Source: a virus. Taken from it: a stretch of 64,000 bases of DNA. This document shows positions 25,450 through 57,880 of this stretch, piece by piece. A program made the position numbers and the translations under genes. The stretch lies in the IMG/VR virus record IMGVR_UViG_3300035684_000001, positions 32,001 to 96,000 of that record; one strand, written 5' to 3'. The notes beneath the pieces are model-generated. The model made no database searches, was not told the DNA's origin, and saw only the letters and a list, made by a program, of their open reading frames with translations. Each line of letters opens with the position of its first letter. The stretch's first letter is position 1.

Positions 25450-25463
25450 CTGATACTTGTATT

Positions 25464-35790: not shown

Positions 35791-35889
35791 TGTTTTTAAT
35801 TGTTTTGAATGCTTACCTCTTTATTATACTCTATTCAAATAATATATGATATAATACGAGAGTAAATACAAAAACAAAGGTATTTTATC

Positions 35890-37305: not shown

Positions 37306-37350
37306 CAAATAGGGGACGCATTCAAATACTGAATGCGTCCCCTATTTGTT
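37304..37350. terminator. Perfect 21-bp-stem bidirectional terminator
   Basis: AACAAATAGGGGACGCATTCA-aatac-TGAATGCGTCCCCTATTTGTT. Confidence 0.85.
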
Positions 37351-37354
37351 TGAT

Positions 37355-37543
37355 TTATTCTAAAATAGAATCGCTATTAAACATCCTCCCAAAAAGATCA
37401 AAGACAGCTTCTTTCGTGGTTGTTGAGTGTGTTTTTAGTAAGTCCTCACATAATAAATCAAATTCTGTCTCATCCTCAGTTTCTACAAAGATTTCACAAA
37501 TTTTCGTCAATAGATCGTCTATTATTTTACTATCGGCTATCAT
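37355..37543 (-). CDS. Small acidic hypothetical protein
   Basis: 62-aa ATG ORF ending at the terminator. Confidence 0.6.
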   Translation of the reverse strand: MIADSKIIDDLLTKICEIFVETEDETEFDLLCEDLLKTHSTTTKEAVFDLFGRMFNSDSILE

Positions 37544-37596
37544 GTTTTTGTTTTGGTAGATAGATTATTACAACTGTAACACAACCTACTGCTTGT

Positions 37597-38916: not shown

Positions 38917-38920
38917 ATTT

Positions 38921-41900
38921 TTGGTACAATTCAATGAAACTAATATATCACGCTACGCAGGCCACCCCACCCAATGGGGCGGCTTTTGTTGTTTGGGGGG
39001 AATTTTGGAAGAGAGTCTGGATCGGTACGGCTTAGTCGGTCAGTTTAATTTCTTAGTTGCAGACGGCAGTTTTTCTTCCATGAAATCTGTTGTCAAACAC
39101 CTGAGCAACATGGAGAAGGCTGTTGCAGACGCTTCCAAATCCGTAGACAGCAACGGGCTAGCAGGTCAATTTAAATCTGCAGCCCGATCGCTCGACACCT
39201 CCTCCGGCAACATGGCAAAGAGCTTGCAGCCTTTAAAAGCTGAGTTTAGGGTGTTAAAAGCTACTGCGGCAAATATTGATTTTGGAGATGTGCTGGACGA
39301 TCGCCAGTTCAAAAAAGCTACAACTGCTGTCAACACTTACGTTAAAAATCTCAAAGAATTAAGAAAGCAAGTTCAGGGCGAAACGGCAGCGGAGCGGGAG
39401 TTTACGGAAGTCCTCAAACGGCAGCAGCGCGTTATTAAGGACAAACTTGCTTTGCACGATGCTGAGCGCAAGGCTGCGTTTTTCTCTCAAAGAAAGGGTG
39501 AGTTTGGGGCGCTGCAACAAGTTGGGAATATAGCACTCAATCCGCTGAAGCAAGCCGGAAAAGAAGCCATTCAAGTTTTTGCTGGTTTTGACGACAAGAT
39601 GAGCGCGGTGGCAGCTATCTCGCGATCAACGGGCAAGGATTTAGATCGGTTGCGGGGTAAGGCTAAGTTATTGGGGGCGACGACTCGATTTACCGCAGGA
39701 GAGGCTGCGGATGCCGAAAAATACTTGGCGGCAGCGGGCTTTAACGCTCAACAGATTTTTGCAGGCGTTCCTGCAACTTTGGATTTAGCTTCGGCGGGAC
39801 AACTGGGATTGGCGGAATCGGCTGACATCGCTTCCAACGTGCTCAGCGGGATGCGGATGGGCGTTAGCGATTTAGGTCACATTACCGATGTTATGGCGTT
39901 GTCGGCTGCTAGCGCAAATACCAACATTCAGCAGTTGGGTGTAGCGATGAGCTACGCTGCTCCCAATGCTGCACTGTTTGGTGCGGGAATAGAAGAAACC
40001 TCTGCTTTAATTGGGGTGATGTCAAATGCGGGGATTCAGTCCGACAAGGCAGGAACGGCTGCAAGAGGAGCTTTTTTAAAGTTGGCCGCACCTACGGTCA
40101 GAGGTCGAATGGCTTTAATTCAATATGGAATTTCGCTGACCGACACCAGCGGTAAAATGCGGAATATCGTTGATGTGATGCAGGATATCGGTACAAACCT
40201 GCAATTAGATCCAGCTTCTTTAGACTCGATAATTCAAGCTGGCGATGACGTAGAAAAACTGGGACAACTTGCCCAGTCAAAGCAAATTTCTGCATTAAAA
40301 GATATTTTTGGCACAACTGGAATTTCGGGGGCATCGGCCGCAATCAGCCAAATGCAAGAATTTACTCGTCTGAGTTTGGCGGGTAGGGGCAGCTCTTTTG
40401 CTATTGAAGACTACGAAAAATTATTTAAATCTCAGGGTATTGATAAATTAGCCACAGATAAAGATGTTTTCGCTTCGCTGCTGCGAGAAGCGGGCAGCTA
40501 TCAAGATGCGCTACAAAAATTAGATGCTGCTACGATCGCCTTAGTTAAATCCAATGAATATTTAGGAAATCTTTCGAGCACCCAGCTAAGTCAATTGTCA
40601 GGATATTTCCAAATACCCGAAGGTGAGAATTTATTTGATGCGATTTTGGCGACTGCTCCCGACGCGAATGCGGCAGTCAGCAAGCTAACCTCAGCGATGG
40701 GCGAATTAGGGATTGAATTTAAGGGAAAATCCGGCGCAGCGAAAACGATGGCGCAGGTGATGGAAAACAACCTGGCCGGTTCTTTCCGATCGCTCGGTTC
40801 TGCGTTTGAAGCAGTTCAGGTCAATTTGATCGAACCGATCGCCCCAATCGTGCGGGCGATCTCCGACACATTAACTAAGTTGCTGCTGGCGATCGCCAAC
40901 CTTCCTTCCCCAATTCGAGGATTGATTGCCGGAGTTGGGGTGCTTACCGCAGGGTTTGCAGCGGTATCGGTTGCAGTCGGAACAGTTGGTGTAGTGCTGT
41001 TTGGATTTTCGCAAGCTGCGGCAACCGCGACTGCTGCGGGAATTGCACTGCAAGCTAGCGTGATTCCGCTGACCGGATTTTTCCCGGCGGCGATGGCGGC
41101 TTTTGAGGGTACGGCGTCCAACCCGTTCAAGACTGCCTCGTTTGCTGCGGAAGCTTTTTCGGACACGATCGCCTCTACGTCCAAAGATGTCAACTTGGGA
41201 TTGAACGGGATTGCTCGAAATATTGCGGTAGTTTCGAGGTCGCTGATTTCGATGTCGGTATCGTTTGCTCTGTCTCCAATGGGAATCGCGATTGCAAGCT
41301 TCCTTGCACTTAATGCTATTTTGCAACAAATTAACCCAGAAATTAATTTGCTGGGTACTATTTTCAGCGCCGTCAGTTCCATCGCTGGTTTTGCAGTTGG
41401 AATAATTCAAGGATTTGGCGAAGCGCTGCTCGCTGCACTAGATGTTCCAACATCTGTTGCAGGTTCGATGTTGACCGCTCCGTTTGCAGCAGTCAGCAGC
41501 GCTATAGAATATGCAACTGTGGCTTTTGAAACTTGGCGGAAATCCGGGCGGGCGATCGGGGTCGATATTTTTAAATTTGTAGCGCAGCCGTTTCAGCTTG
41601 CAGGCAGGGCGATCGAGACTTCATGGAACTTCACACTGAACTATATCAAGGGCTTGCTGACGCCTTTTGCTGGCTTCGTAGCTCGGATTGGCAAATTGCT
41701 GCAAGGGGGTCTAGCTGAGGCATCGCCGGGTCCGACCTACATGATTCGGGAAAAGTGGGATTACACGATCGCCTTTTTGGAAAAGCTGTTCACCAGAATT
41801 AGAAACGCTGCAGGTTTAGTTAATCGGGCTTTTTTAGGTATTGGAAGTGTAACAGAATCCTCGAAGATGGAAGCTCAGCAACAAATATTGCAAGGGGCGA

Positions 41901-44900
41901 TCAATTTAGTTACTAACTCTGTCAAGAAGCTTTCGGTTATTGGGGGAACTATTACTCAAATCCAGCAATTTGAGCGAAGTATTATTGATGGAGTTAGAGA
42001 AAACTTCGATTTTCTCAGCTTTACACTGCTAACCTTGTCGTCACTGCCTCTAACATTGCTAGCTCAATTAGAAGAAGGGGCAGCACTAATCGTTCCAGAG
42101 CTAGCGTTCATTATTGGAGAAGGAATCCCTAGGGCTTTTTTGTATGCAATGCCTGGGCTGGTCGCGATCGCCACTTCTACGGGATTAATTCAGGGAATTG
42201 AACGGGGATTCATGGGCGCAATCGATGCAATACCGGAATTTCTGGAAAGAATTTCCGACAAAATTTACAATTCCCTCTCTGTCGGGATGAAACAGAAGTT
42301 AAATCAAGGGTTGAGCGAAGGCTTGACATCTTTTGCGCGATCAATGCCTGCAATATTTCCAGGGGGGGTCGCGATCAATGTTGATATCGACAAAAGTTAC
42401 TTAGCAATTAAAGACTTTATTCGAGGTCCGCTAGTAGGACTGATTGCTTACCTCCACCGCGTCGGAGATTTGTCCAAGGAAATTGGTAAGGAAATTTACG
42501 CCGGAATCGAACCAATTTTAAGTTTCAATCCATTTACTTTTTTCCCGCTTTTTTCGGCACTGCCACCCCTGATACCGCTAGTGACTGCTATTTTGCCGAT
42601 GGAAAAGGCACTGGTGTCGCTAGCTAAGTCTCCTTCAGTTCAGGGGATTATGGGATTTTTAACTGGAACCGTTTTACCCGCTGCGCTCAGGACGATCGCG
42701 GCTATTTCTTCTCTAGTTATTTTTACTTTTAACGCGATCGTTACTTTGCCTGTATTGGCGGTATTGCAGGAAGTTATCAGCAGGCTGACTCCAATTACAG
42801 AGATCCTTCGGGCGATCGCGCTTAACGCTCAATCTGTCGCTGCTGCTGTTGGGAGGTCGCTGCTGCTGGCGGTGGATCGCGCAGTAATTGGTATTGCTGC
42901 GCTAATCCTCGAAATTCCCTATATCGGAAAACACTTGTCGGCTGCATTTTTGGTCGGAACCAAAGCCCTAGGCGGATTTTTTCAGTTAATTGCAGCATCT
43001 GCGCCTCGCTACTTAAACTTGCTGCTGAGGTTTTTTCCTACAAAACAATTAGTTGCTCTTTTCTCAAGCTACAGAAAGATTTTTACCGATTTAATGTCGG
43101 GAGTGGTTTACGCATTTAGAGAGGGGTTGAACCCAGTTTCTAATATCTTGATGAAAGCGCTCAATCCGGCAGCAGCTTTCAAGTTCTTGGCTTTTTACAT
43201 CCGAACCAAAGGATTAGCGGGAATTATTAAGAAGGGTGGTTTTGGAGGATTGTCCCAAATATTTAATCTTGCAAACTACATCAACCCTATCGATATTGCA
43301 CTGGGATTGAATAAAAGTTTGAACGAAGTTGCGAGGTTGGTATCGGGAAGTGCAGTTCCTCTGGACTTTATTTCCAGAAAACAAGCTGAAATATTCCAGG
43401 TTTTAGCTACTCCCGCAGCGAGGAGACTAGCTGAAAGAGAGAAGCGTTTGGTATCGCTAGTTGAAATTCTCGAAAGTGCATCGGGTCCGATGAAAGTATT
43501 TATCAAGCTCGTCCAGGGATTGATGATGGTTTCCCCGATCGTCCAGATTGTCAGTCGATTGGGTCTGACAATGCTGTTTTGGTACAACATCCTGAAACCA
43601 GTCAATAAAGAGATGTTGGACGCGATCGCCAATACCAGACTTTTGGGTGTCAGTTTGATGCCCGTCGCCAAGGTGTTGGAAGTCATGCGGTTTGTGGTAG
43701 TCGATCTCGGTGAAATCCTGTTCCGATTCTTAAAGGCGATACCGGGGATGGCTGCAACCGTTATGGATGTCTTTGACAAATTAGGGACAGGTATTGGGGT
43801 GACAATCCACGAAATTGTCGGAGTTTCGTCTATCCTTGCCAATGTTTTCAAATTCTCTGTCATAAACCCGCTAGCGGGCATACTCCTCGCGGTGATAGCG
43901 GTGGCAGACGGTACACTGATTGCAGTATTGGCAACATTTAAGCTGATTCGATTGAAAACTCAGCAGTACGGTGACGCGATCACGGCATTGTTGCGCGGTA
44001 ACTTTGTACCGCTAGTCAAGCAAATTTTTAGTGATTTGTTTGGAGTCATCAACTTCGGGTTTCAGCAGACAGCGATGCGGGCGGTAAGCGCGATCTCCTA
44101 TTTGGGTAAAACAGTAGGGACGATCGTCGGGGCAAGCGCCGCTGAAATTGTCAGGTTAATTCGAGATCCGATCGGTGAAATCACCAGATTAACGGAACTG
44201 TCTGTAAAAAGTTTGGCTGCTGCAACCGCCGGGGTGATGGTTTACGTCCGCCAGTTGCAACTCGATAAATTAATTCGATTTGCTGCGGATTTTTGGCCGG
44301 AAATTTTGGCAGTCGCCAGCGTGTTAGGTAGGATTTATGGTTTACTGAGTCCGATCCAGTTTGCGATCGTGGGACTGATCGAACTCGGCGGATTCTTGTC
44401 CTACGAGTACGCTACCGGATTTCAAAATTTAGATAAAATCATCACCGCTCTCCAGCACCCGATCGACGCATTGAATATGGCGATGCAGGGAATAGCTGGA
44501 TTCCTAGGGTTGTACATCTCACCGGATTTAACTGGGTTTATCGGCAACCTCGCAGAGCAATTTGTCAAATTCCTCCCGGTAATTGGGTCGGGAGTGTTTG
44601 CGATTGCGCTGTTGCTGACGCGGAATATCGGTGGTGCGTTTCAGATGATTTCTAACAACGTGCTCTTGTTTATCGGACGGATTTTGCAAGTTTCCGAGGC
44701 AATTGCAGGGGTGGGTGATCGGGTCAGACAAGTTGCTAGCAGTGCCAACATACAGGTTGGCTTGAGCGAAGTTGCAAATAAAGTGCGCCGCAGATCGACA
44801 GTTGCCGGAATTGCCAACCCGCTAGCTTATTCTCAAGATTTTCAAACCCAGCAGCAGGCAACGTTTCTCGGAGATCAAAGAGTTGCCAAATCTAAAGCAG

Positions 44901-47900
44901 CGCTACGCTATCAAAAGGAGTTAGCCAAAGCCCAGCAACAAGAACAGGCGTTATCGGAACGCGCTCTAATTTCCGAAGTTAAGCGGGGAACTGATTTTGG
45001 TAAGGGATTAGCAGATGCAGAGCGACGGTATTACCTTAAGGACAAAAACGGCATTACCGAGGGGGTGAGCGGAGCTGCTGTAGAAAAACGCCGCAACCGA
45101 TTCGGTATAGAGCAGTACCAAGTTACCGACATCGGTCGCCAACTCCTAAAAATGAGCGGTCAAGGTGGCGAAAACGTCAAGGCGGGGCGGGGCTTGCAAT
45201 TTGAAAACATACGCCGGGAGGCGGCGAAGAGATCCGGGCTAGATGCTGAGTTTTCTCGATTTGGAAATGCGCCGAGCAACGAAGAGTTGGTGAAGTTAGC
45301 CGGTGGCAAAAACGTGGCAATCGACCTTTTGACTAATTTTCAAAAGGCGATGGCTAACTTGCACGTTGAGGATATTAAAGCTGAGTACCTTTACGTGAGT
45401 AAATCAAAATTGCCGCAAGTATCGAAAGATAAACCAGATAGCGAGAGAGCTTTCGATATTCAAGTTCAACGATTCAAGGATAAGGGAAATAAAGATATAG
45501 GTATTAATAGCGTCGCTTCATCGTCAGAGATCCGAAAGGAAATGGAGGCTGCAAAAAAAGCGACCGTCAATGCTAGCACTGCCTTTTATTCAAGGTTGAA
45601 TGCTATTTTAGCTAAGGTTAAAACCTCACCGACTGACTCATCTCCTAGTTCCAAAATGTTTAACCCCGAAGCTGATACGCAAAACTACGCTGATAGGCTA
45701 AAAGCCGCTAAAGCTGTGGACAAGCAAAGGCCACAAGGAGAATTTGAGAGAACTCTTGCAGATATCATTCACACGATCAACGAAAGACAGACTAAGATGA
45801 TCGTTCAAACGGTCACGGGGTTCAATAACTTTGAAGAAGCAAACAAGCAGGCAGCTAGAGAGTTGCAAGAATCTTCTGGGCGATCAAGGCAAGTAGCTAT
45901 AGGTTTTGGCGAGGTAGCAGTACAGGGGGTAAGAAACCTCGGTCATTCAATGCAAGAGTCGTCTAACTTGCTAGAAGGACAGGTTGCTTCCACTCGGAAT
46001 TCTTTGGTTCGTACTTTGTTTGGATGGACTGGAATTCCCAAGATATTAGAAGCTATGCGATTCGATAAAACAATTGCAATTCAAGCGCGAATCGTTCAGG
46101 CTAGAACCGAAAGAATAGCTCGATCTGAAGCTACTGCCGCTTTAGTGTTAAAGAGGGCGCGAGAAAGAGGGCTAGATGCTTTAGTTAAAAACAATCCAGA
46201 ACACGCAAATTTAGATTTACTTCTAGTGAAAATGAGGCAACCAGAAAATAAACAGTTGTATCAATTCTTTAATCAGTTCATGGAGACTGGAAAGTACCAG
46301 CGAGAAGCTACTGGTAACGAAATTACCCAACTAACTGAAATGTTGAAAGCTAGCTTTGGTGAAAAGCGACCTGAGTTTCAGGGAGTAGATAATTTAAAGA
46401 CATTTTTAGACAGATTAAAATCTGCACCCGATCTGAACAAAGAAGATATTCAAAAGTTGCGAAGATATTTGACGCACGGCACGGGGGATCGTGGCAAACA
46501 ACTTAAAGAAAATGAATTTGAAGCATTAGCGAAACAATTAACCAATGCTGGCATAGGAGGAGAAAATGAATTACTGGATTTGCGAACAGCACTTCGCAGA
46601 GATGAGTCACTTGCTACTGTATTCGATCAATATTTGTTAACTGGTAAGTTTGTTTTAAAAGCGAGTCAAGAACAGCAAAATCAAATTGCTGGATTTCTTG
46701 GATTATCTTCGTCCCGTGAACTCAAAAATATTGATCAGATTAAATTAAAAAATCCTTTGGAGCAACTAAAAGTCAATGTTCGGGTTTACCTCGAAAGTAT
46801 AGACGCGGGTTTTGAACGATTCAATCGATCTACAATTAGCCAGATAGATTCCCTAGAATCGAAATTAATTAAAATACCGTTCATGAGTGTAGAGATGGCA
46901 GAAAACATTGTCCGTCCTCTCCGTAACTTTTACGCTGGTATTTACAGATCTGCTTTATCTGCCAAAGATTCATCAATCAAACTAGCTGGCGATCTGTATA
47001 ATGCCGCAGAAGCTAGTGTTAAAGGATCTAAGTTTGTTCAAAGAATTGAAAAACTGAATAAAGATTTTAGAATTGCTCAGCGAAACAGTTTACAACACAT
47101 GATGACAGAAGGGCGCGAGAAAGCCCCGAAAACTCATTATCAATTTATGGGTCAAATGTTTGCGGAGTTGACAAAAACTGACATCAAGGATCGGCAAGTT
47201 CAAGACAAAATACTGCAATCTATTCTCAAGGATCAAAAAGATAGTGAAGGAAATAACATCTCGATCAAAGACAGGCTGCTTAAGTTAGGGATGGGTGATA
47301 GGATTGAAAATATTACTAAAGCACTAGGAAAAGCTTTAGACGTAAATGAGGCTAGAGTTCGTGAGATCGTGGAGAATCCTGATTACACGGCGAAGTCTGT
47401 TGCACCTTATCAATTCTTTTTAGCCAAAGCATTCCCTGATTTAATCAAAAATTTCACCGGGGGAGTGACGTTACTTGCTGCTAAAAGCGGAGCGGGCGGA
47501 TTGATTAAAAAGATAGTTGCAGATATTTCTCCCGCATTAGGTAAACCAGTATTAATTGGACTTTCCAATGTCATCGATCGCGCCCGAATCGCTATGTCAG
47601 TCGGAACCAACCGAATCGCCCGTGAAGTCGAAGGGTTGATCGGGACAAACCCGTTTAGCAATTTCCTTAATAACTTCTCCCGATTTTTAGCTCGCAGTGG
47701 CGATTCGCTGTCCAAGTTTTTTGTTGATCGTGCCAACGGATTTGACGCAGAACGAGCTAAATCTTGGACGGTCAAAATAGTTGATAAAGCAGGAGAACTG
47801 TTCAAGACGGTTGCTGGAGTGTTGGTTCAAGCAGGGAACCAAGCGAAATCGCAGCAGGGCGGAATTTTAGGGGCGATCGGCAATTTATTCTCTGGAGTTA

Positions 47901-50900: not shown

Positions 50901-53900
50901 CCTCTCAAGCAGAATATGCAGGTTTGGCAACGAAGATTACTGTACAGAAAAAAGGTCTTGGCGGACTGCTGGGTCAAACAGAAGATGTCTACAAAATTAA
51001 TCAAGCCGGTCAAAAATATATAGAAGAGCAATTGGCAGCATCTGCCAAAAATCAAGAAGGGATGTTTTCTAATGCTAGGTTGAGTGCTACGGCTGCATCT
51101 GTGGGAGCCAAGATTCCCGATCAATCGCTGTTAGATAAAGCTTTAATTGGGCAAGATTCATTGAATGATGCCATAAAAATTGCACCGGGGCAACCTGGAA
51201 AGTCGCAACAAATCCTACAACTGGAATCAATAAACAGCATATTAGCTGAAATTTTAACAGTTATAATTGGGCTGCAACCAGCATCAGTTCAAATACCCAG
51301 TAAACAGGTAATTGCTGAACCGCCCCGTGAAAAACTTCTACCATTAGAGGTTAAAGAAACAAGTTCTGCACAGAAATTCTTTGGCTTTTTAAGTCAAAGT
51401 ATAAAAGAAAATGCGCCAAAAATAACCAACTCTATTCAAGGTACTGTTAAATCTGGGATTGACAAAACTAAAGATTTTATTTCTTCACGAAAGCAAGCTT
51501 TTATCGAAAAGAAAACGTACTTGGCAGCTAAAGCAGGTGCGGGTATATTTGGTGGCACAGTTCCAAAAACCCCCGACGCGGTTGGTGTCACTGGAACGAT
51601 TGGCTTTGGTGATTTAGGTGCTAGCAGCACAAATGCAGCATGGGCTAATACCGCTTCAGCTATCACGGCGAACATTAATTCCTTGGTACAGCCAGCGGAG
51701 GATTCTGGGTACGAACTGCAAAAAGCTGTTTCTGAAGGTTCTCCCGGCCCAACTTACTGGATTCGACATTACTGGGAAAAAACTGTCGGGGCGATCGCTG
51801 GGTGGATGGGCGACATCCAGTCAACCGCTCAAGAAACCGGATCGGTTCTGCGCGGTAGCTTAACAAATTCAGCTAGCAAGATATTGCTATCGCCACCAAA
51901 AAACGACCTCAAAAGTCAGGCGATTCGATCTGCAAGTTTCTTCATGCTAGCTGTGGGTGATCGCTATCAGTATCTAGCCGATCGCGGAATAGGTAGCGCC
52001 AGTATTCTGTTCGCACCTGGGATGGAGTATGTCACAAGCAGCCTGAGTCAACTGGGTGAAGATTTAGTTGATTTTACCGGGCGATCGGCAAGAGCCTTGC
52101 TAACTCTAAATTTTGTGGAATTAGGGGACGCAGCTCACGACTTCTTCGGTAACTTCAAATATGGGGTGGGAGGGGTACTGTCGGGATTCAGTAGCATGAG
52201 TTTATCGGCGATCGCCTTCGGACTGTTTTCGCTGTCCGGTATTTCTCCGCTGCTTCTAGTCCTGGGGGGTGTCGCATTTACGGCTGCGGTAATCGTTGCG
52301 AACTTCTTGGGTATCCGAACGATTTTAACTGGGCTAATCAAAATTGGGATTGGTGCTGGCAAGATTTTGGCTGGAGTGCTGTGGGGATTAGTGGAAGCAG
52401 CGAGTGCTTTTAAAACGATCGCCCTAGGTATATTGCCCGCGCTGAAAGGAGATTTCACTCTAATCCAAGACGGCTTCCGGCGGCTGGGGTTTGCGTTTGA
52501 GAATTTTCAGCGTAGCGCGAGCGACGGGTTGAAGACGATCGCCCAAGGTTCAATCCAGATATTGCAGGGATTTGGTGAAGCGCTTGAACAAATTTTCCGA
52601 CCGTTAGGTTTTACCATCAAACAGACAACCGAATCTATCCAGAACTTTTTTTCAGCTTTCCGGTCTGGTGAGCAGGCGGGAGAAATGGTCGCATCTATAT
52701 TGATTGCTGCGGTCAAATCATTCACCAATGCTATCGGTTTTGCCATTGACAGTATTAAAAAGCATTTTCCAGTAATCAAGCAGCTTTTGGTAGAGCAACT
52801 TGATCTCGGAGTGCAGTCGATCAAAGACAAAATCTTTCAGGTTCAGGAAGCGATCAAGAATTTTACATTCAAAGATGCGATCACCAGTATCAGTCAACTC
52901 TTTGGTTCCATAGACGGATCTGTTGAGTCAGTTCCCGATCGCATCAAAAGATTAGCACCGGGAATCACTGAAGCTCTGACAGCACCTCTTAGATATGTTG
53001 GAGACTTCTGGCGGAGCTTTTTCAACACAATTCTCGCTGAGCTACCCCCAGAGATTGTGGCGACGATTCAGAAAGGGTTTGGCGACGCAATCTCCGCAGT
53101 TGAGCCGACGTTCCGGCAAATCCTCAAGACGTTGAACATTGAGGAATACTTTGATCGTGCGATAGTCAAGGTTCAAACTTCCTGGCAACACCTAAAAAAT
53201 TGGCTGGGGCAGAGTAACTTATTTCAAGTTGTGGGCGATCGGCTGCGCGAGGCTTTTAAGCCAGAAAACCTGTCTCAAGCTTTTCTTTCAACTATCAATA
53301 TCTTAGAGGCTGCATGGAGCAAGTTCGTTGGTTGGATGAGCGCAACTAATTTATTTGATTGGTTGTTCGCTCTCTTGCTCAAAGTCGGATCGGAATTTAC
53401 ATTGTTTGGAGATTTACTAAGAGAGAAGTGGTCGGATGTTCAAAAGTTGCTGGCATCTGGACAAGTATTCCAAGGATTCTTTGAGGGGATGAAGGATTTA
53501 GGTAGTAAACTAACTACCTGGGCGCTCGAAATTGGCTTAAAATTCGAGATACCAGCGATTCAAGACTTGTTTGTCAAGATTGCTTTATTAGGGGAAAATC
53601 TTAGCAATACAACGGCATTTATTCGAGAAAAATGGAATAAATTATCTGTTTGGTTAGCTGAGACTCCTCTGATTCCAGGGGCTTTAGACTTCCTAGTAGC
53701 ACTTGGTACAAAGTTTGGCGAGACAATATCTTGGATTAAATCTGAATGGCCCAATTTTATCACCTTCTTAACGTCGGCAGATTTGTTTGCGAATATATCT
53801 GCAAAGATGAAGAGTTTTGGCGAATCAATTCCCTCTTTGTTTGAAGAAATAAAAGGACAGGTAGCTAAAATTATTCCTAGCATGAATGGTGCAATCGGAT

Positions 53901-56900
53901 CTATCCAGGTTCAATGGCAACGTCTCACAGAATTCTTGAATAAAAAGGGTCTGTTTACACGGGTGTTTGCGGGACTGAGTGAAGCTCTGAATGAAAAGGG
54001 CTTGTTTACTAGGATTTTTACGGGAATCCAAGATATTCCGATCGCCCTTGGGAAAGTAGCAGACTGGATTAAGGAGAAATGGCAAAAGTTTGCCGTAGAG
54101 TTTCAAACGATATTGACTCCTATCGTAGACTTTGCTAAATGGCTGGGTCAAACCTTGATCAACTTATTGAACCATAGCCCGACGGTCAAGATCCCTGAAG
54201 CTTGGAAGGAAGCAGTCACCAAAATAACGAATTCGTTGTTGGCACTGATAGCGCCTGCGAGTTGGGTGGCAAGTCAAATTATCGAGAAGTTTAATTTAGA
54301 TGCAGTAAAAAATGGGTTTAAATCCCTGACTGGATTTATCTCTAATTTTGCAACCAGCTTGTTTTCTGAAGTTCAACAGCCACTGACAGACTTGATTGGC
54401 ATCGTAGTTTCTGCAAGTAAGTCAGTCATTGATTTTGGCAAAACTTTGTTCGACATTGCCAAGGCGGTAAATAGTGGGGCGATCGCCTCCGATGAGATGA
54501 CATCTAAATTAACGGGTGTGTCATCCGCCGTCAGACATTTGGGTGAATTCTTAGGAGTAATTCTACGGAGTTTAGGGCAGTTCTCTCAAGGATTAACTTC
54601 CGCTGGTGATGATGCCGATCGCGCATCTTCTGCGGGGAAAGGGTTGGGGCAAGTTGTAGGAAAGATGTTAGCTGGCATAGTTAGTTTCTCTACGACAGTC
54701 CTGCCACCTTTGTTCAAAGTGTTGTGGGTGTTTACGCAGATAGGTATTGAGATTTCAGCGTTCGCACTAAAGTTTGTATGGGCATTTCGCTTTGTACTGG
54801 ATTGGCCTAGTCGGGTAATGACCGCTGTTTTAGGTTTATACAATGCGGTCATGAGGTTTGTCGCGCTGTTGTCGTCATTCTCTCGTAAATCTAAGGAAGT
54901 TTTTGTAGGATTACAGGAAGGTTTTGCAAGCTTTAAGACTCAACTAGCAGGTGTTGCGCTGACTGCGAGTGAAATTGCAAGCAGTTTCCTCGGTTTCGCT
55001 AAAGACATCGGTACTTTCGGCTCGAAGATGGGAAGTGTCATAGCTGAAATATTAATCGGGCTGAAAGATGTAGGTGTTGCGCTTTTCAAGCTCGGCTTAG
55101 ATGTTTCCCTACCATTCGACATCTTCAGTGTGTTTAAAGGGATTCCCGACATAATTTCTAGCATAGGTGCTCTTGGCAGTAACGCCACTGAATTAAAAGG
55201 AAGGTTGATTTCAGAGTTGGGAGAATTGGGTGCAGCGATCACCCAGTTTCTCGAACAACCACTGAAAGCGGTGGGGGCAATTTGGGAAAAAACCGGAGGC
55301 AAAATTGTCGGGGCGATCGCGGGTATCGGTAGAAAAGCCAAGCAAACCGGACAACAATTGCAGGGCGATTTGTCGGAAGCGTCGCCGGGTCCGACTTACT
55401 GGATTCGCAAAAATTGGCTCAATACTACAGAGACTATCCAGAGTCAGTTGTCGGACTTGGCGCTGTCTGCAAAAATTGAAGGCAACGCAATTTACAAATT
55501 CTTAGACCGATCGCTCACCGCGTTATCTCCATCTAAAATTGCCGAAGCCGGGGAAGCACTTGGCGGACTGAAGTTTGATGCGCGACTAGCGATGTCGAAC
55601 GTGGGTCGTAATCCGAAAGTTGACACGCAAAGTAACCTTCATGTCATTACCGCACGGCAGTTGAGATTGAATGAACTCTACAAACAAGGGACGATCGACA
55701 GCAAAGTCTACACCCAAGGTTTGAAGAATTTAGAATCTGCCCACAAGCGGGTAACGCAAGCAGTCGAACAGGATACCGCTGCTAGGAAACAAGCTGGTGA
55801 AAGCGTTAGATCTTTGTCGCTGTCGATCGGTTCCGCACTGTCGAACATTGCCCCGCAGCTAGCGACGCCGATATTCATGTTCAATGACTTAGTGACTGCA
55901 TTCCTAGATATTCGGACTGCAATACCGGGGATGCGAGCTTTTTACGCAGCGAACGCAGCAAGTTCCGTAGCTGCTGACAGCGCGATCTCCGCATCCGCTT
56001 TAACCAAAGCTGGAATCGTGGGGGGTGCTAACGGGGCGATCGCCGCTTCTTACGGGTTTGTTGCGGGTGCTGCCAAGCTTGCCTATAGGTCAATGATTGT
56101 ACCGTTGCTGCCGTTTTTACCTTTGATATTAGGGATTAGCTCTGCCATATTTTTGCTGTACCGAGCTTACAAGGACAACATTGGCGACATTCAAGGGGTT
56201 ATGGAAAATGCAAAAAATAGTCTAGGTAATTTTGGATCGTGGATTCTTGAGTCTATTTCCAGTGTTGCTTCTGGAATTGTTGGAATGATTGCAGGCGTCC
56301 TTGGCCCATTGATTGAGGTCAGCAAATTTGCTTTTACTGTATTTGGGGTATTCGTTGAGTCACTACTGAAGATTGGCGCTGCTTTAGCTGTATTTTCTTT
56401 CCTGGGTCAAATAGGGAGTCTGTTTGTCAGCGCTGGGGCATTTGTTACTGGATTGGGGCTAGCAATTGTTGAATTTTCGACGATCGCTGGAAGTGTAGCC
56501 GCAGTATTTAGCGGAGTATTAGTTCCAGTGATTCTCAGTGGATTGAGTGCAATCTTTGCTGCGGCAGCCGCAGTAATCACCCCCTTTCTTCCTTTGATTC
56601 CATTAATTCTAGGAATTGTCACGGTCGGGTGGGTGCTGGGGAAAGTCTTCAACTTTGTTGGCAGTATTATCGGTGGCGTTTTCGGGGGGATTTGGAATTC
56701 GAGTACCGAAGTGGTTGGAACACTATTTCAGGAAATCAGTAATGTCTGGAGCGCACTCGCGGATCTAGGTGATCAAATTGTCCAACCATTCGCCCAAGCT
56801 TTTGGGGCTATCGCCAGTATCTTTGGCGGGGTAGATGGAAACATATCAGGGGTTGCCTCAACAATCATCCATGTGTTGCTGATTCCAGTTAAGCTTCTAG

Positions 56901-57880
56901 CTGCTGGCTTAATTACAATCATCAAGGCAATTTCATTTACGCTAATTGGCGTAATTAAAACGCTAGGGTTTGTTTTCAAGGTTGTCTCGAAGATTGTTCA
57001 ATCGGTTGCAATTGTCGGTACAGTGATCGCCGGAACAGTCGCGACTTTAGCCTTGATAGCAAATTTTGGTGTCGTGCTTGCTGGGATAACAGGAGCTCTT
57101 GGGGCGATCGGTACTGCTGTATCGGGAGTTGGCAGTGCCTTGATGGCGATCGGAGGCGTATTTGTCACAGTTGTCATTCCAGTCATTATGGGCGGCATTG
57201 GGGCTATAATTGCAGGTATTTCTGCTGCGGTGGTTGCAGCGTCACCTTTCTTGGCGATAATTCTTGGAGTTGTGGCGATCGGGTGGGTTTTGAAAGAAAC
57301 TTTCGTTGTAGTTGGAGGTGCTATTACTAGAGTTTTCCAAGGAATTTGGAACTTAATTCAGTGGGTTGTCACTAATTCAATGGGGATTCTAGCTAATATC
57401 CCCTTCGTTGGCGGATTGTTTGCTCCTTCATTGCGGAGTCAACCTTTACCGAGCCACCCACTACAGGTTCAGCCAGTACAGCGTTATGCGGTCGGTGGTT
57501 TGATATCGGGTCCGGGAACATCTACAGGCGATCGCGTTCCTATTTTGGCTTCACCTGGGGAGTATGTTATCAACGCTGCTGCTACGCGATCAAACCTACC
57601 GTTGTTGGAATCGATTAATCAGGGCGATCGGGTAGAAGCTTCTAACCTCCGCGCATTGCCCGTTCCCGCAACTCCAATTCCCCTTCCCCCTGTTGCATCT
57701 TCGCAGGCGACAGAGTATAACGTTCAATTAATTTTTGGAGATATTATAGTACAGGGTGCAAATCCAGGTTTTGCAGCAGAAGAATTATTACGCGAACTCA
57801 TGAAGCATTTGGAATCACCGCAAGCACAAAGAGTTATTCGCAATCAATTGCGCGATATTGTTGAAAAAGCGAAGCAATAA
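38921..57880 (+). CDS. Giant phage tail tape measure protein (~6,300 aa; likely TTG start at 39005)
   Basis: TP901/PhageMin_Tail-type N-terminal domain (FDDKMSAVAAIS...LGATTRFTAGEAADA.KYLA.AG...LDLASAG); Ala/Gly/Leu-rich amphipathic helices; C-terminal YAVGGLISGPGTSTGDRVPILASPGEYVINAAAT. Confidence 0.93.
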   Translation: MVQFNETNISRYAGHPTQWGGFCCLGGILEESLDRYGLVGQFNFLVADGSFSSMKSVVKHLSNMEKAVADASKSVDSNGLAGQFKSAARSLDTSSGNMAKSLQPLKAEFRVLKATAANIDFGDVLDDRQFKKATTAVNTYVKNLKELRKQVQGETAAEREFTEVLKRQQRVIKDKLALHDAERKAAFFSQRKGEFGALQQVGNIALNPLKQAGKEAIQVFAGFDDKMSAVAAISRSTGKDLDRLRGKAKLLGATTRFTAGEAADAEKYLAAAGFNAQQIFAGVPATLDLASAGQLGLAESADIASNVLSGMRMGVSDLGHITDVMALSAASANTNIQQLGVAMSYAAPNAALFGAGIEETSALIGVMSNAGIQSDKAGTAARGAFLKLAAPTVRGRMALIQYGISLTDTSGKMRNIVDVMQDIGTNLQLDPASLDSIIQAGDDVEKLGQLAQSKQISALKDIFGTTGISGASAAISQMQEFTRLSLAGRGSSFAIEDYEKLFKSQGIDKLATDKDVFASLLREAGSYQDALQKLDAATIALVKSNEYLGNLSSTQLSQLSGYFQIPEGENLFDAILATAPDANAAVSKLTSAMGELGIEFKGKSGAAKTMAQVMENNLAGSFRSLGSAFEAVQVNLIEPIAPIVRAISDTLTKLLLAIANLPSPIRGLIAGVGVLTAGFAAVSVAVGTVGVVLFGFSQAAATATAAGIALQASVIPLTGFFPAAMAAFEGTASNPFKTASFAAEAFSDTIASTSKDVNLGLNGIARNIAVVSRSLISMSVSFALSPMGIAIASFLALNAILQQINPEINLLGTIFSAVSSIAGFAVGIIQGFGEALLAALDVPTSVAGSMLTAPFAAVSSAIEYATVAFETWRKSGRAIGVDIFKFVAQPFQLAGRAIETSWNFTLNYIKGLLTPFAGFVARIGKLLQGGLAEASPGPTYMIREKWDYTIAFLEKLFTRIRNAAGLVNRAFLGIGSVTESSKMEAQQQILQGAINLVTNSVKKLSVIGGTITQIQQFERSIIDGVRENFDFLSFTLLTLSSLPLTLLAQLEEGAALIVPELAFIIGEGIPRAFLYAMPGLVAIATSTGLIQGIERGFMGAIDAIPEFLERISDKIYNSLSVGMKQKLNQGLSEGLTSFARSMPAIFPGGVAINVDIDKSYLAIKDFIRGPLVGLIAYLHRVGDLSKEIGKEIYAGIEPILSFNPFTFFPLFSALPPLIPLVTAILPMEKALVSLAKSPSVQGIMGFLTGTVLPAALRTIAAISSLVIFTFNAIVTLPVLAVLQEVISRLTPITEILRAIALNAQSVAAAVGRSLLLAVDRAVIGIAALILEIPYIGKHLSAAFLVGTKALGGFFQLIAASAPRYLNLLLRFFPTKQLVALFSSYRKIFTDLMSGVVYAFREGLNPVSNILMKALNPAAAFKFLAFYIRTKGLAGIIKKGGFGGLSQIFNLANYINPIDIALGLNKSLNEVARLVSGSAVPLDFISRKQAEIFQVLATPAARRLAEREKRLVSLVEILESASGPMKVFIKLVQGLMMVSPIVQIVSRLGLTMLFWYNILKPVNKEMLDAIANTRLLGVSLMPVAKVLEVMRFVVVDLGEILFRFLKAIPGMAATVMDVFDKLGTGIGVTIHEIVGVSSILANVFKFSVINPLAGILLAVIAVADGTLIAVLATFKLIRLKTQQYGDAITALLRGNFVPLVKQIFSDLFGVINFGFQQTAMRAVSAISYLGKTVGTIVGASAAEIVRLIRDPIGEITRLTELSVKSLAAATAGVMVYVRQLQLDKLIRFAADFWPEILAVASVLGRIYGLLSPIQFAIVGLIELGGFLSYEYATGFQNLDKIITALQHPIDALNMAMQGIAGFLGLYISPDLTGFIGNLAEQFVKFLPVIGSGVFAIALLLTRNIGGAFQMISNNVLLFIGRILQVSEAIAGVGDRVRQVASSANIQVGLSEVANKVRRRSTVAGIANPLAYSQDFQTQQQATFLGDQRVAKSKAALRYQKELAKAQQQEQALSERALISEVKRGTDFGKGLADAERRYYLKDKNGITEGVSGAAVEKRRNRFGIEQYQVTDIGRQLLKMSGQGGENVKAGRGLQFENIRREAAKRSGLDAEFSRFGNAPSNEELVKLAGGKNVAIDLLTNFQKAMANLHVEDIKAEYLYVSKSKLPQVSKDKPDSERAFDIQVQRFKDKGNKDIGINSVASSSEIRKEMEAAKKATVNASTAFYSRLNAILAKVKTSPTDSSPSSKMFNPEADTQNYADRLKAAKAVDKQRPQGEFERTLADIIHTINERQTKMIVQTVTGFNNFEEANKQAARELQESSGRSRQVAIGFGEVAVQGVRNLGHSMQESSNLLEGQVASTRNSLVRTLFGWTGIPKILEAMRFDKTIAIQARIVQARTERIARSEATAALVLKRARERGLDALVKNNPEHANLDLLLVKMRQPENKQLYQFFNQFMETGKYQREATGNEITQLTEMLKASFGEKRPEFQGVDNLKTFLDRLKSAPDLNKEDIQKLRRYLTHGTGDRGKQLKENEFEALAKQLTNAGIGGENELLDLRTALRRDESLATVFDQYLLTGKFVLKASQEQQNQIAGFLGLSSSRELKNIDQIKLKNPLEQLKVNVRVYLESIDAGFERFNRSTISQIDSLESKLIKIPFMSVEMAENIVRPLRNFYAGIYRSALSAKDSSIKLAGDLYNAAEASVKGSKFVQRIEKLNKDFRIAQRNSLQHMMTEGREKAPKTHYQFMGQMFAELTKTDIKDRQVQDKILQSILKDQKDSEGNNISIKDRLLKLGMGDRIENITKALGKALDVNEARVREIVENPDYTAKSVAPYQFFLAKAFPDLIKNFTGGVTLLAAKSGAGGLIKKIVADISPALGKPVLIGLSNVIDRARIAMSVGTNRIAREVEGLIGTNPFSNFLNNFSRFLARSGDSLSKFFVDRANGFDAERAKSWTVKIVDKAGELFKTVAGVLVQAGNQAKSQQGGILGAIGNLFSGVKKFFSNVFGNKDIAKLQKQKEAAERLAQSEGDSRLGLAAKRRAATLGDRIEYTKQFNSPASKAKAALFGLAELLKTASQKVGQGADALNAQSRQAAIPQSETTIREASRGGRRHYRSLERRGLIDSADVSIDSGMAEYASNILPLTEKISASILKGASSAARGISTYFQGAATRTETAWQEATNRITGNNWWTMVKRAAWAGVKIVTSLNHRASDVTSAAWENTEHSTAANMNQMAQVAAGTGAEIAQDMQRAAQVTQQSIAHIPQVAEQATTKSVGFFHKLVGAMGGVGKAGMAVGGAVTAAGFAAQTAFFSLQNMGFIDEATGQSLYKVTELFTLVGAVGGLAAPVLTALGASFGAIVSISGATIAGLTGIGGAIAGAMGVAALPLAPLIAGVAAIGLAAGGLYLAFKNNFLGIGNLARSTGDMLSQALSAPISFITAAWQRFIDAFGGKLMAIIQPALNVAQGLINALNHNPTEKIPTAWEGAVASITGLIQGMVAPAKGVGEEMSEVLQADDAKQRRKTEFINSIALGATGEKQKLSWQENLQIGFGKVVAALTSVLSPLDSVGKKLDIQAQLLHAQIRQQQTAQAQTLWRFATNKERNKNLATRIEGMLQRRFSREAPQQLSHSARTMGGFVPRSGTTATAPPMLGALQQSGAGKGISKFGSLLKPIFGLGMLGEVGTLMLGIGGITTALSVLTLAFTTDFADIRTKTVKLTTAIGHLFSGAVQTIQRAWTGFVHWFLDMPLVDTALEMALGLIDALNHNPTEKIPAAWEGAVERISGAINWLITPAKEVAGILTGVFSPVSDFFSSKAKQANLVVSQGKEAVVNTKNSLTNTYAGMEGFFTQGSRAIESELHLHGQIFLSIVSTLNNIASYTKSLLSLLDKTQEETRSSAVAQAPDLGKSSVLAQRKYQIGFGLKGEGWKKRTEQSRQKDISNDLGQQKRGWNLFDRVHIPDFIEIRNVFDKESAFRTQIQAQMQKEELKIADTILQGLNSKSLSSQAEYAGLATKITVQKKGLGGLLGQTEDVYKINQAGQKYIEEQLAASAKNQEGMFSNARLSATAASVGAKIPDQSLLDKALIGQDSLNDAIKIAPGQPGKSQQILQLESINSILAEILTVIIGLQPASVQIPSKQVIAEPPREKLLPLEVKETSSAQKFFGFLSQSIKENAPKITNSIQGTVKSGIDKTKDFISSRKQAFIEKKTYLAAKAGAGIFGGTVPKTPDAVGVTGTIGFGDLGASSTNAAWANTASAITANINSLVQPAEDSGYELQKAVSEGSPGPTYWIRHYWEKTVGAIAGWMGDIQSTAQETGSVLRGSLTNSASKILLSPPKNDLKSQAIRSASFFMLAVGDRYQYLADRGIGSASILFAPGMEYVTSSLSQLGEDLVDFTGRSARALLTLNFVELGDAAHDFFGNFKYGVGGVLSGFSSMSLSAIAFGLFSLSGISPLLLVLGGVAFTAAVIVANFLGIRTILTGLIKIGIGAGKILAGVLWGLVEAASAFKTIALGILPALKGDFTLIQDGFRRLGFAFENFQRSASDGLKTIAQGSIQILQGFGEALEQIFRPLGFTIKQTTESIQNFFSAFRSGEQAGEMVASILIAAVKSFTNAIGFAIDSIKKHFPVIKQLLVEQLDLGVQSIKDKIFQVQEAIKNFTFKDAITSISQLFGSIDGSVESVPDRIKRLAPGITEALTAPLRYVGDFWRSFFNTILAELPPEIVATIQKGFGDAISAVEPTFRQILKTLNIEEYFDRAIVKVQTSWQHLKNWLGQSNLFQVVGDRLREAFKPENLSQAFLSTINILEAAWSKFVGWMSATNLFDWLFALLLKVGSEFTLFGDLLREKWSDVQKLLASGQVFQGFFEGMKDLGSKLTTWALEIGLKFEIPAIQDLFVKIALLGENLSNTTAFIREKWNKLSVWLAETPLIPGALDFLVALGTKFGETISWIKSEWPNFITFLTSADLFANISAKMKSFGESIPSLFEEIKGQVAKIIPSMNGAIGSIQVQWQRLTEFLNKKGLFTRVFAGLSEALNEKGLFTRIFTGIQDIPIALGKVADWIKEKWQKFAVEFQTILTPIVDFAKWLGQTLINLLNHSPTVKIPEAWKEAVTKITNSLLALIAPASWVASQIIEKFNLDAVKNGFKSLTGFISNFATSLFSEVQQPLTDLIGIVVSASKSVIDFGKTLFDIAKAVNSGAIASDEMTSKLTGVSSAVRHLGEFLGVILRSLGQFSQGLTSAGDDADRASSAGKGLGQVVGKMLAGIVSFSTTVLPPLFKVLWVFTQIGIEISAFALKFVWAFRFVLDWPSRVMTAVLGLYNAVMRFVALLSSFSRKSKEVFVGLQEGFASFKTQLAGVALTASEIASSFLGFAKDIGTFGSKMGSVIAEILIGLKDVGVALFKLGLDVSLPFDIFSVFKGIPDIISSIGALGSNATELKGRLISELGELGAAITQFLEQPLKAVGAIWEKTGGKIVGAIAGIGRKAKQTGQQLQGDLSEASPGPTYWIRKNWLNTTETIQSQLSDLALSAKIEGNAIYKFLDRSLTALSPSKIAEAGEALGGLKFDARLAMSNVGRNPKVDTQSNLHVITARQLRLNELYKQGTIDSKVYTQGLKNLESAHKRVTQAVEQDTAARKQAGESVRSLSLSIGSALSNIAPQLATPIFMFNDLVTAFLDIRTAIPGMRAFYAANAASSVAADSAISASALTKAGIVGGANGAIAASYGFVAGAAKLAYRSMIVPLLPFLPLILGISSAIFLLYRAYKDNIGDIQGVMENAKNSLGNFGSWILESISSVASGIVGMIAGVLGPLIEVSKFAFTVFGVFVESLLKIGAALAVFSFLGQIGSLFVSAGAFVTGLGLAIVEFSTIAGSVAAVFSGVLVPVILSGLSAIFAAAAAVITPFLPLIPLILGIVTVGWVLGKVFNFVGSIIGGVFGGIWNSSTEVVGTLFQEISNVWSALADLGDQIVQPFAQAFGAIASIFGGVDGNISGVASTIIHVLLIPVKLLAAGLITIIKAISFTLIGVIKTLGFVFKVVSKIVQSVAIVGTVIAGTVATLALIANFGVVLAGITGALGAIGTAVSGVGSALMAIGGVFVTVVIPVIMGGIGAIIAGISAAVVAASPFLAIILGVVAIGWVLKETFVVVGGAITRVFQGIWNLIQWVVTNSMGILANIPFVGGLFAPSLRSQPLPSHPLQVQPVQRYAVGGLISGPGTSTGDRVPILASPGEYVINAAATRSNLPLLESINQGDRVEASNLRALPVPATPIPLPPVASSQATEYNVQLIFGDIIVQGANPGFAAEELLRELMKHLESPQAQRVIRNQLRDIVEKAKQ
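38922..38930 (+). promoter_or_regulatory. Extended -10 (TG-G-TACAAT) upstream of the tape measure gene
   Basis: Direct match in the divergent intergenic region. Confidence 0.5.
38960..38995 (+). terminator. GC-rich hairpin plus U-tract in the tape measure leader
   Basis: GGCCACCCCA-cccaa-TGGGGCGGCT-TTTGTT. Confidence 0.5.

What the first reader, a model, noticed from the sequence alone, without database searches (positions are those of the whole stretch)
38921..57880. A ~6,300-residue tape measure protein, implying a tail near 1 micrometre
Seen: one uninterrupted 18.9-kb ORF with tape measure N- and C-terminal signatures. Established: tail length scales at roughly 0.15 nm per residue, and the very long-tailed Thermus phages P23-45/P74-26 have tape measures of about 5,000 aa. 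Inference: ~0.9-1 micrometre if used whole, beyond those phages and remarkable if the tail is contractile (baseplate J present). It could be an adaptation for crossing the cyanobacterial sheath, or the protein could be a processed polyprotein.
Basis: partly seen in the sequence, partly recalled or inferred. Interest (0 to 1): 0.85.

Follow-up and report, generated by a model that had tools for sequence, protein, structure and literature searches.

The report
Giant tape measure, contractile-tailed Nostoc-type phage
The 18.9-kb gene is real and is the only tail-length "ruler" protein (about 6,290 residues, a quarter longer than the longest studied) of a ~189-kb contractile-tailed phage of Nostoc-like cyanobacteria, which predicts a tail of about 1 micrometre that nobody has yet seen.

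Summary
Window 38921-57880 (+) is one open frame of 6,319 codons. The likely start is TTG 39005, giving about 6,291 aa.

It is a true TP901-type tail tape measure protein (TMP):
- A strong PF10145 domain and a C-terminal TMP signature.
- No Cys after the start, and a largely helical predicted middle.
- No enzyme domain detected.

It is the only TMP in the record. The record is circularly permuted relative to a 188.9-kb sister contig, so the ~189-kb genome is essentially whole.

dN/dS against the sister is 0.11, and 0.04-0.17 in every 500-codon bin. Twenty-three other 50%-identity clusters hold TMPs longer than 5,002 aa.

The closest named relative is the 223-kb circular plasmid pC052_F of cultured Nostoc sp. 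C052. It carries a colinear 8,170-aa TMP plus homologous sheath, portal, terminase and baseplate genes.

The phage encodes a 1,000-aa tail sheath, a gpV-type spike and gpJ/gpI-like baseplate proteins, so the tail is contractile.

At 0.15-0.17 nm per residue the tail would be 0.94-1.07 µm. That figure is inference, because no particle has been seen.

I found no paper describing these proteins. This scan has already met the same family on other DNA (7,310, 7,312 and 8,234 aa).

The parts
38921..57880 (+). Giant tape measure ORF as listed (6,319 codons, including a probably untranslated 28-codon leader)
39005..57880 (+). Most likely coding sequence (TTG start, about 6,291 aa). The alternative ATG at 39080 gives 6,266 aa
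   Evidence: Homologues align from aa 29-34. A G-rich stretch lies just upstream
39656..40312 (+). PF10145 PhageMin_Tail core domain (aa 246-464)
   Evidence: E 2e-39; PDB 9g8s 'Tail tape measure' E 2e-26
44768..48520 (+). Hydrophilic, charged, mostly alpha-helical middle region (aa ~1950-3200)
   Evidence: Composition. The AF2 model of aa 2001-3100 is mostly helix, mean pLDDT 61. No fold match in the PDB. Language-model neighbours are TMP clusters only
49415..51484 (+). Variable cassette (aa ~3499-4188), replaced or resized even in 57-82% identical relatives
   Evidence: Colinearity breaks in P0003, P0004 and P0005
52520..52906 (+). Weak second PhageMin_Tail-like stretch (aa ~4534-4662), inside a second TMP-like unit (aa ~4230-5540)
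   Evidence: E 0.0018, below cut-off; phrog_1272 at aa 4428-4846, E 8e-25; internal repeats
56078..57340 (+). Very hydrophobic Gly/Ala/Val/Ile-rich C-terminal region (aa ~5720-6140) with many membrane-span-like stretches
57302..57625 (+). C-terminal tape measure signature (aa 6128-6235, ...GGLISGPGTSTGDRVPILASPGEYVINA...)
   Evidence: phrog_25241 E 1.6e-14
37597..38916 (-). Divergently transcribed 439-aa gene of unknown function. The TMP gene is therefore not preceded by tube or chaperone genes
3..686 (-). 3' part of the baseplate wedge / gpJ-like gene (full ORF 391 aa, running off the left edge of the window)
   Evidence: 48% identical homologue in pC052_F
2489..4510 (-). Large terminase subunit of the same phage
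   Evidence: 44% identical homologue in pC052_F

Best explanation
The ORF encodes the single tail tape measure protein of a ~189-kb, probably episomal, contractile-tailed phage of Nostoc-type cyanobacteria. As in other long-tailed phages, a few copies of the extended, mostly helical protein would be anchored by their C-terminus in the baseplate hub. Tube and then sheath subunits would polymerise around them until the N-terminal end is reached, so the ~6,290 residues would set a tail of roughly 0.94-1.07 µm. On contraction the protein would be expelled ahead of the DNA, and its very hydrophobic C-terminal part probably helps form the passage through the envelope. Shown here: that it is a TMP, that it is unique in the genome, that it is intact and conserved, that no enzyme domain is detectable, and that the tail gene set is contractile. 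Inferred: the oligomeric extended state, the tail length, and the channel role.
For: TMP identity: PF10145 at 135.8 bits; N-terminal, middle and C-terminal PHROG tape-measure hits; PDB 9g8s tape measure, E 2e-26.
Only TMP in the record. No other large ORF has TMP-like composition.
Genome essentially complete: the two ends of the contig lie next to each other in the 188,942-bp sister contig G001, which CheckV rates 98% complete.
Selection: dN/dS 0.11 over 5,842 codons, and 0.04-0.17 in every 500-codon bin.
Size is conserved. Colinear homologues of 6,321-7,596 aa reach down to 27-38% identity. Among the best hits, 28 other 50%-identity clusters exceed 4,000 aa and 23 exceed 5,002 aa. The Nostoc sp. 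C052 plasmid pC052_F carries a colinear 8,170-aa copy.
No cargo found: no other Pfam or PDB sequence hit, no DxDGD or HExxH motif and no Cys after the start, a helical middle with no fold match.
Contractile tail: the 1,000-aa sheath matches phrog_23 at 1e-16 and solved sheaths 9ezm at 2e-8, 8bky and Afp3. The spike matches Phage_base_V above its cut-off and gp5-like phrog_430. There are gpI- and gpJ-like baseplate proteins.
Calibration: Anabaena myophage A-1(L) has a 1045-Å tail and a TMP of about 689 aa, which is 0.152 nm/aa (PMC10966104). P23-45 has a 5,002-aa TMP and an 'extraordinarily long tail' (PMC10770324).
Host: 36 ORFs, including the virion module, are shared with the Nostoc plasmid. 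The contig's TnpB is 70-72% identical to TnpBs of Nostoc plasmids.
Against: The gene is not in a tail module. It lies ~40 kb from the sheath, its upstream neighbour is divergent, and its neighbours are not conserved in pC052_F.
The AF2 model of the middle shows many short helices and turns rather than one continuous helix, at modest confidence. Part of the chain could therefore be packed more compactly than 0.15 nm/aa.
A 690-aa cassette is exchangeable among close relatives, and a second degenerate TMP unit exists, so not every residue need be ruler.
From memory, not checked here: some jumbo myophage tape-measure-like proteins such as phiKZ gp181 are longer than their tails require.
A ~1-µm sheath built from a 110-kDa subunit would outweigh the capsid several-fold (inference).
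Confidence: 0.6

Rival explanations
1. It is a true tape measure, but only part of it rules the length. Large sections (the hydrophobic blocks, the charged middle, the second TMP-like unit) would be ejected cargo, or would be folded back inside the tube or head. The tail would then be long but clearly below about 0.6 µm.
For: The architecture is modular. Motifs are repeated: SPGPTYWIR three times and LNHNPTEKIP-type four times. There are internal duplications, a weak second PF10145 unit and an exchangeable 690-aa cassette. The middle is predicted as many short helices. There is precedent for cargo in a TMP: the P23-45 TMP carries an RNA polymerase at about aa 327-1124 (PMC10770324).
Against: No recognisable enzyme or globular fold was found anywhere outside PF10145. 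The overall size is kept at 6.3-8.2 kaa across relatives that are only 26-38% identical. That fits selection on length itself. P23-45 still has an extraordinarily long tail despite its fused enzyme.
Confidence: 0.25
2. It is a polyprotein. It would be cleaved after synthesis into a normal-sized tape measure plus separate virion or ejection proteins.
For: Two TMP-like units lie in one frame. From general knowledge, many tape measures are trimmed during assembly.
Against: No protease domain or conserved cleavage module was detected in the protein or next to it. The single C-terminal signature and the single strong N-terminal core domain sit at the two extremes of the protein, as in an ordinary one-piece TMP. 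Colinearity without gene fission holds in about 30 divergent clusters.
Confidence: 0.1
3. It is a relic or an assembly artefact: a non-functional or chimeric reading frame in a defective element that makes no particles.
For: IMG/VR classes the record as linear and CheckV rates it 67% complete. No integrase or ParA was found.
Against: dN/dS is 0.11 in all bins. Independent assemblies from JGI, ENA, NCBI and Logan give the same length class. A finished circular plasmid of a pure culture carries the same gene. A full set of terminase, portal, capsid-like, sheath and baseplate genes is present.
Confidence: 0.03

Closest known systems
[quoted passage not shown]
   Same: Both are giant single-ORF tape measures that imply a micrometre-scale tail.
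   Different: This one is about 1.26 times longer. The family-specific region shows no detectable sequence relation to any deposited phage. It has no fused RNA polymerase or other enzyme. Its phage has a sheath and a contractile-type baseplate rather than a flexible siphovirus tail. The host is a mesophilic cyanobacterium rather than Thermus.
Nostoc sp. C052 plasmid pC052_F (NZ_CP040278.1), WP_179070682.1 'phage tail tape measure protein', 8,170 aa
   Same: The protein is colinear over the whole length at 26-46% identity. The same element type: 36 shared ORFs including terminase, portal, sheath (48%), tube candidate, gpJ, gpI and spike.
   Different: It is 1,850-1,880 aa longer, on a 223-kb circular replicon in a cultured strain. 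Its neighbouring genes are different. It is annotated only automatically, and I found no paper describing it.
TP901-1-type tape measure proteins (Pfam PF10145 / PHROG 1533, 28, 1272; solved example 9g8s, 1,424 aa)
   Same: They share the core domain, the hydrophobic segments, the HSPS-like short motifs and the C-terminal signature.
   Different: This one is 4-9 times longer. It contains at least one degenerate internal repeat of the TMP unit. Its gene lies outside the tail gene cluster.
Anabaena myophage A-1(L) tail (gp13 TMP ~689 aa, 1045-Å contractile tail, 24 tube/sheath rings; PMC10966104)
   Same: A contractile-tailed phage of a Nostocales host. It supplies the residues-to-length calibration used here (0.152 nm/aa).
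   Different: Its tail is about nine times shorter than the one predicted here, and its genome is far smaller.

Membership tests
TP901-family tail tape measure protein (PF10145) | PhageMin_Tail core domain above Pfam's gathering score | tested here: met
   135.8 bits against a cut-off of 33.2, aa 246-464
TP901-family tail tape measure protein (PF10145) | C-terminal tape-measure signature and TMP-like sequence along the body | tested here: met
   phrog_25241 at aa 6128-6235, E 1.6e-14; phrog_1272 at aa 4428-4846, E 8e-25
TP901-family tail tape measure protein (PF10145) | Mostly alpha-helical, Ala/Leu/Gly-rich, (near) Cys-free chain without globular enzymes | tested here: met
   No Cys after the start. 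AF2 predicts aa 2001-3100 as mostly helix, but mean pLDDT is only 61. No other Pfam or PDB hits
TP901-family tail tape measure protein (PF10145) | Gene placed in the tail module, after the tube and frameshifted chaperone genes and before the baseplate hub | tested here: not met
   The upstream neighbour is divergent and unknown. The sheath and tube candidate lie about 40 kb away. The gene is detached in pC052_F as well
TP901-family tail tape measure protein (PF10145) | Protein length determines tail length | not testable with these tools
   This needs particles and deletion mutants
Oshimavirus-type giant TMP with fused virion RNA polymerase (P23-45 gp96) | N-terminal cell-type RNA polymerase module (DxDGD catalytic loop) | tested here: not met
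   No DxDGD or DGD motif. No Pfam or PDB hit other than the TMP core
Oshimavirus-type giant TMP with fused virion RNA polymerase (P23-45 gp96) | Sequence relationship to the Thermus phage proteins beyond the generic TMP core | tested here: not met
   tblastn of aa 1528-2527 against 50,697 deposited phage records found no match
Contractile (myovirus-type) tail | Tail sheath protein | tested here: met
   1,000-aa ORF at genome 129856-132858: phrog_23 at 1.4e-16; PDB sheaths 9ezm at 2.3e-8, 8bky at 1.6e-6, Afp3. Pfam sheath models missed it
Contractile (myovirus-type) tail | Baseplate with gpV/gp5-type spike and gpJ and gpI wedge proteins | tested here: met
   Phage_base_V at 24.3 bits against a cut-off of 23.8, and phrog_430; Tail_P2_I at 23.6 bits against 20.6; phrog_6 at 9e-14
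Contractile (myovirus-type) tail | Tail tube protein | tested here: inconclusive
   The 188-aa ORF directly after the sheath is conserved in G001 (87%) and pC052_F (40%). It has no family hit and its AF2 model was unusable, pLDDT 31
Phage-plasmid (episomal temperate phage) | Persistence as a circular extrachromosomal replicon with a full virion gene set | tested here: inconclusive
   The relative pC052_F is a finished circular plasmid of a pure culture. This contig and G001 are circular permutations of each other, and no integrase was found. However, no ParA was found either, and circular permutation also fits headful packaging of a lytic phage

The most novel reading that the evidence does not exclude
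A lineage of Nostocales phages or phage-plasmids builds contractile tails of about 1-1.25 µm. These would be longer than any phage tail measured, and (from memory) about twice the longest contractile tail known. The ruler would be an enzyme-free tape measure of 6.3-8.2 kaa that grew by internal duplication of TMP units. One member sits in a culturable strain, Nostoc sp. C052, so the limit of sheath-driven injection could be tested directly.
Probability: 0.5. Interest if true: 0.85.

Novelty: new variant of a known kind. Interest (0 to 1): 0.66.

Why it matters
Tape measures are the textbook example of a molecular ruler, and the rule has been checked only up to about 5,000 residues and only in a non-contractile tail. 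A 6,300-8,200-residue ruler paired with a sheath raises several questions:
- Can a contractile machine of about 230 rings assemble, stay straight and fire?
- How far can it drive its tube? This could be hundreds of nanometres, which is relevant to the thick slime and envelope layers of Nostoc.
- How is a very hydrophobic 700-kDa chain kept soluble during assembly?

The related plasmid in a pure Nostoc culture makes these questions testable at the bench. If the tail proves ordinary, the protein would instead show that huge non-ruler payloads can hide in tape measures. That would also be new.

Tried and rejected
- Megablast of the first 5 kb of the gene against plasmids and phages found no match.
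- Pfam sheath models PF04984 and PF17482 did not hit the record. The sheath was found only with PHROGs and PDB sequences.
- Foldseek of the middle-region model against the PDB gave only generic helical-repeat noise, E above 0.04.
- The Atlas feature search gave only TMP-like clusters with scores below 0.9, which is a lead and no more.
- The AF2 model of the tube candidate was unusable, pLDDT 31.
- PDB searches of the 765-aa and 547-aa ORFs, checked as possible ordinary rulers, found nothing. Their Cys-rich composition is not TMP-like.
- The GTDB scan found one relative only, on a Lake Mendota scaffold binned as Acetobacteraceae. This is probably a mis-binned phage contig and gives no host evidence.
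- The histidine-kinase tblastn was uninformative for host.
- Relatives cannot be drawn for a virus record.
- Five literature searches on giant or cyanobacterial tape measures, cyanobacterial phage-plasmids and Nostoc sp. C052 found no description of this protein family.
- The reading that the ORF is a chance or decayed frame is rejected on dN/dS and on conservation.

Full report
**Observation**

The window holds one open frame at 38921..57880 (+) of 6,319 codons, with no internal stop. GC skew is positive throughout it.

Distant homologues start to align at aa 29-34. A TTG at 39005 follows a G-rich stretch. It gives an N-terminus, MEESLDRYGLVGQF, that parallels the annotated start of the Nostoc homologue. 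The protein is therefore most likely 6,291 aa, or 6,266 aa if the ATG at 39080 is used.

The upstream gene (37597-38916) is on the other strand, so the gene has its own upstream region.

**What it is**

- Pfam finds a single family, PF10145 PhageMin_Tail, at aa 246-464: 135.8 bits against a cut-off of 33.2.
- PHROGs gives tape-measure families at the N-terminus (phrog_1533, 1e-75), in the second half (phrog_1272, aa 4428-4846, 8e-25) and at the C-terminus (phrog_25241, aa 6128-6235, 1.6e-14).
- The only PDB sequence relative is a solved tail tape measure, 9g8s, at 2e-26.
- Composition is typical of tape measures: Ala 12%, Leu 11%, Gly 9%. The only two Cys lie before the probable start. No HExxH, DxDGD or CxxC motif is present.
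- There are about 18 merged hydrophobic blocks, and aa 5720-6140 is almost continuously hydrophobic.
- Short motifs recur: SPGPTY(W/M)IR three times and LNH(N/S)PTxKIPxAW-type four times.
- Several 70-140-aa segments are internally duplicated at 25-67% identity.
- A weak second PhageMin_Tail-like stretch lies at aa 4534-4662.

These repeats indicate that the protein grew by duplication of tape-measure units.

An AlphaFold2 model of aa 2001-3100, built with an 11-sequence alignment, is mostly helical. Its mean pLDDT is 61. It has no significant fold match in the PDB. Language-model neighbours are tape-measure clusters only.

I therefore see no hidden enzyme. This differs from P23-45, whose tape measure carries an RNA polymerase (PMC10770324).

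**The element**

The record is a 188,553-bp IMG/VR virus contig. CheckV rates it 67% complete. However, its two ends map next to each other in the 188,942-bp sister contig G001, which is rated 98% complete. The two contigs are circular permutations of each other, so the ~189-kb genome is essentially whole.

PF10145 occurs only in this ORF. No other large ORF has a TMP-like composition or a TMP hit. This is therefore the phage's only ruler.

Virion genes are scattered around the genome:

| Gene | Location | Evidence |
|---|---|---|
| Large terminase | window 2489-4510 | |
| Small terminase | window 6315-6965 | |
| gpJ-like wedge | window 3-686 and leftwards | |
| Portal | outside the window | |
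| Weak major-capsid candidate | outside the window | |
| 1,000-aa sheath | genome 129856-132858 | |
| gpI-like protein | outside the window | |
| 1,468-aa gpV/gp5-type spike | outside the window | |

The sheath's C-terminal domain matches phrog_23 (1.4e-16) and the solved sheaths 9ezm (2.3e-8), 8bky and Afp3. The tail is thus of the contractile type.

The tube candidate is the 188-aa ORF just after the sheath. It is supported only by its position and its conservation.

**Conservation**

Against the G001 orthologue, dN/dS is 0.11 over 5,842 aligned codons. It is 0.04-0.17 in each 500-codon bin.

The word-indexed search found ten homologues of 6,321-7,596 aa. They are colinear end to end, down to 27-38% identity. 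One exchangeable cassette, aa ~3499-4188, differs even among close relatives.

The exhaustive search with aa 54-1253 put 28 further 50%-identity clusters of more than 4,000 aa among the best hits. Twenty-three of them exceed 5,002 aa, and the longest is 7,596 aa. Some of these proteins are in NCBI records.

**A named relative and the host**

tblastn of a family-specific segment found one plasmid: pC052_F of Nostoc sp. C052. It is 223,442 bp, circular, and comes from a pure culture isolated from Blasia pusilla. Its CDS 20766..45278 is annotated 'phage tail tape measure protein' and is 8,170 aa long. That protein is colinear with this one at 26-46% identity.

Thirty-six ORFs are shared between the two elements. 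They include TerL (44%), gpJ (48%), sheath (48%), tube candidate (40%), portal (48%), capsid candidate, gpI and spike.

The contig's TnpB has its best plasmid matches in Nostoc plasmids, at 70-72% identity over the full length. Other cyanobacteria follow.

The host is therefore very probably a Nostoc-like cyanobacterium. No tyrosine integrase and no ParA were found, so an episomal or a lytic lifestyle both remain possible.

**Tail length (inference)**

- A-1(L), a contractile phage of Anabaena, has a 1045-Å tail, 24 rings and a TMP of about 689 aa. That gives 0.152 nm/aa (PMC10966104).
- P23-45 has a 5,002-aa TMP. P74-26's tail is called the longest of any virus, 'nearly 1 µm' (PMC10770324, PMC10034513).
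- Applying 0.15-0.17 nm/aa to 6,291 aa gives 0.94-1.07 µm. That corresponds to roughly 220-240 rings, or about 1,300-1,450 copies each of tube and of the 110-kDa sheath.
- The Nostoc plasmid's protein would give about 1.2-1.4 µm.

This extrapolation has not been checked beyond 5,000 residues, nor in a contractile tail of this size. Three features leave room for a shorter tail: the modular build, the exchangeable cassette and the short-helix prediction.

**Literature and novelty**

Searches on giant or longest tape measures, cyanophage tape measures, Nostoc plasmids or prophages, cyanobacterial phage-plasmids and strain C052 found no description of these proteins. No deposited phage matches the family-specific region.

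The family does exist in databases under automatic annotation.

This scan has already reported it on other DNA:
- e1-5710682: 7,310 aa.
- e1-5691675: 7,312 aa, contractile cyanophage of about 245 kb. The 7,312-aa protein P0164, on a 242-kb contig, also appeared in my.
- e1-3272774: 8,234 codons.
- e1-3422034.

This report adds:
- Evidence that this genome is complete and circularly permuted.
- The per-bin selection test.
- The single-ruler check.
- The sheath, spike and baseplate evidence for this genome.
- The culturable Nostoc strain as a test system.

**Verdict**

The gene is real and it is a tape measure: a size-extreme, enzyme-free variant tied to a contractile tail. The micrometre tail is the most likely consequence, at about 0.6, but it is unproven.

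Noticed in passing
window 30514-35790 (-): A 1,758-aa methyltransferase-helicase protein matches the DarB-like antirestriction family phrog_10089 over nearly its whole length (E 0, 1,038 bits). It lies two genes upstream of the tape measure gene.
   Followed up: no
G000 ends (L001:1-2000, L008:14554-16553) against G001:C1:31542-36129: The two ends of the 188.5-kb record are adjacent in the 188.9-kb sister contig, so the two are circular permutations. CheckV's 67% completeness for this record is probably an underestimate.
   Followed up: yes
NZ_CP040278.1 (L021, L032-L043): Plasmid pC052_F of cultured Nostoc sp. C052 carries a full virion gene set related to this phage and an 8,170-aa tape measure. 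It looks like a phage-plasmid, or a phage genome recovered from the culture.
   Followed up: partly
P0006 (7,596 aa homologue): The precomputed Pfam list shows a DnaJ (PF00226) domain inside this giant tape measure relative. A chaperone J-domain fused to a ruler would be unusual. Its position was not examined, because the protein is too long for the family scan.
   Followed up: no
L026 (JBIPLY010000571.1, 51.6-kb scaffold): A Lake Mendota MAG labelled Acetobacteraceae holds a 36%-identical relative of the family-specific TMP segment. It is probably a phage contig mis-binned into a bacterial MAG.
   Followed up: no
window 23342-23414 (-): ARAGORN calls a tRNA-like gene with an aberrant two-base 'anticodon' (tRNA-???). 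A normal tRNA-Met lies at genome 136376-136449, just before the gpI-like gene.
   Followed up: no
window 1049-1561 (+) and genome 8380-9195 (-): There are two HNH endonuclease genes, one beside the large terminase gene. The terminase subunits are on opposite strands, and virion genes are scattered over more than 120 kb rather than clustered.
   Followed up: no
genome 113635-114840 (-) (L004:1635-2840): The TnpB gene on the phage is 70-72% identical over its full length to TnpBs on plasmids of three Nostoc strains. This suggests exchange of this element between the phage and Nostoc replicons.
   Followed up: partly
window 61779-63094 (-) and on to genome 97121: Two response-regulator receiver proteins (301 and 137 aa) and a 673-aa GAF/PAS histidine kinase lie about 4 kb downstream of the tape measure gene, on the opposite strand.
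   Followed up: no
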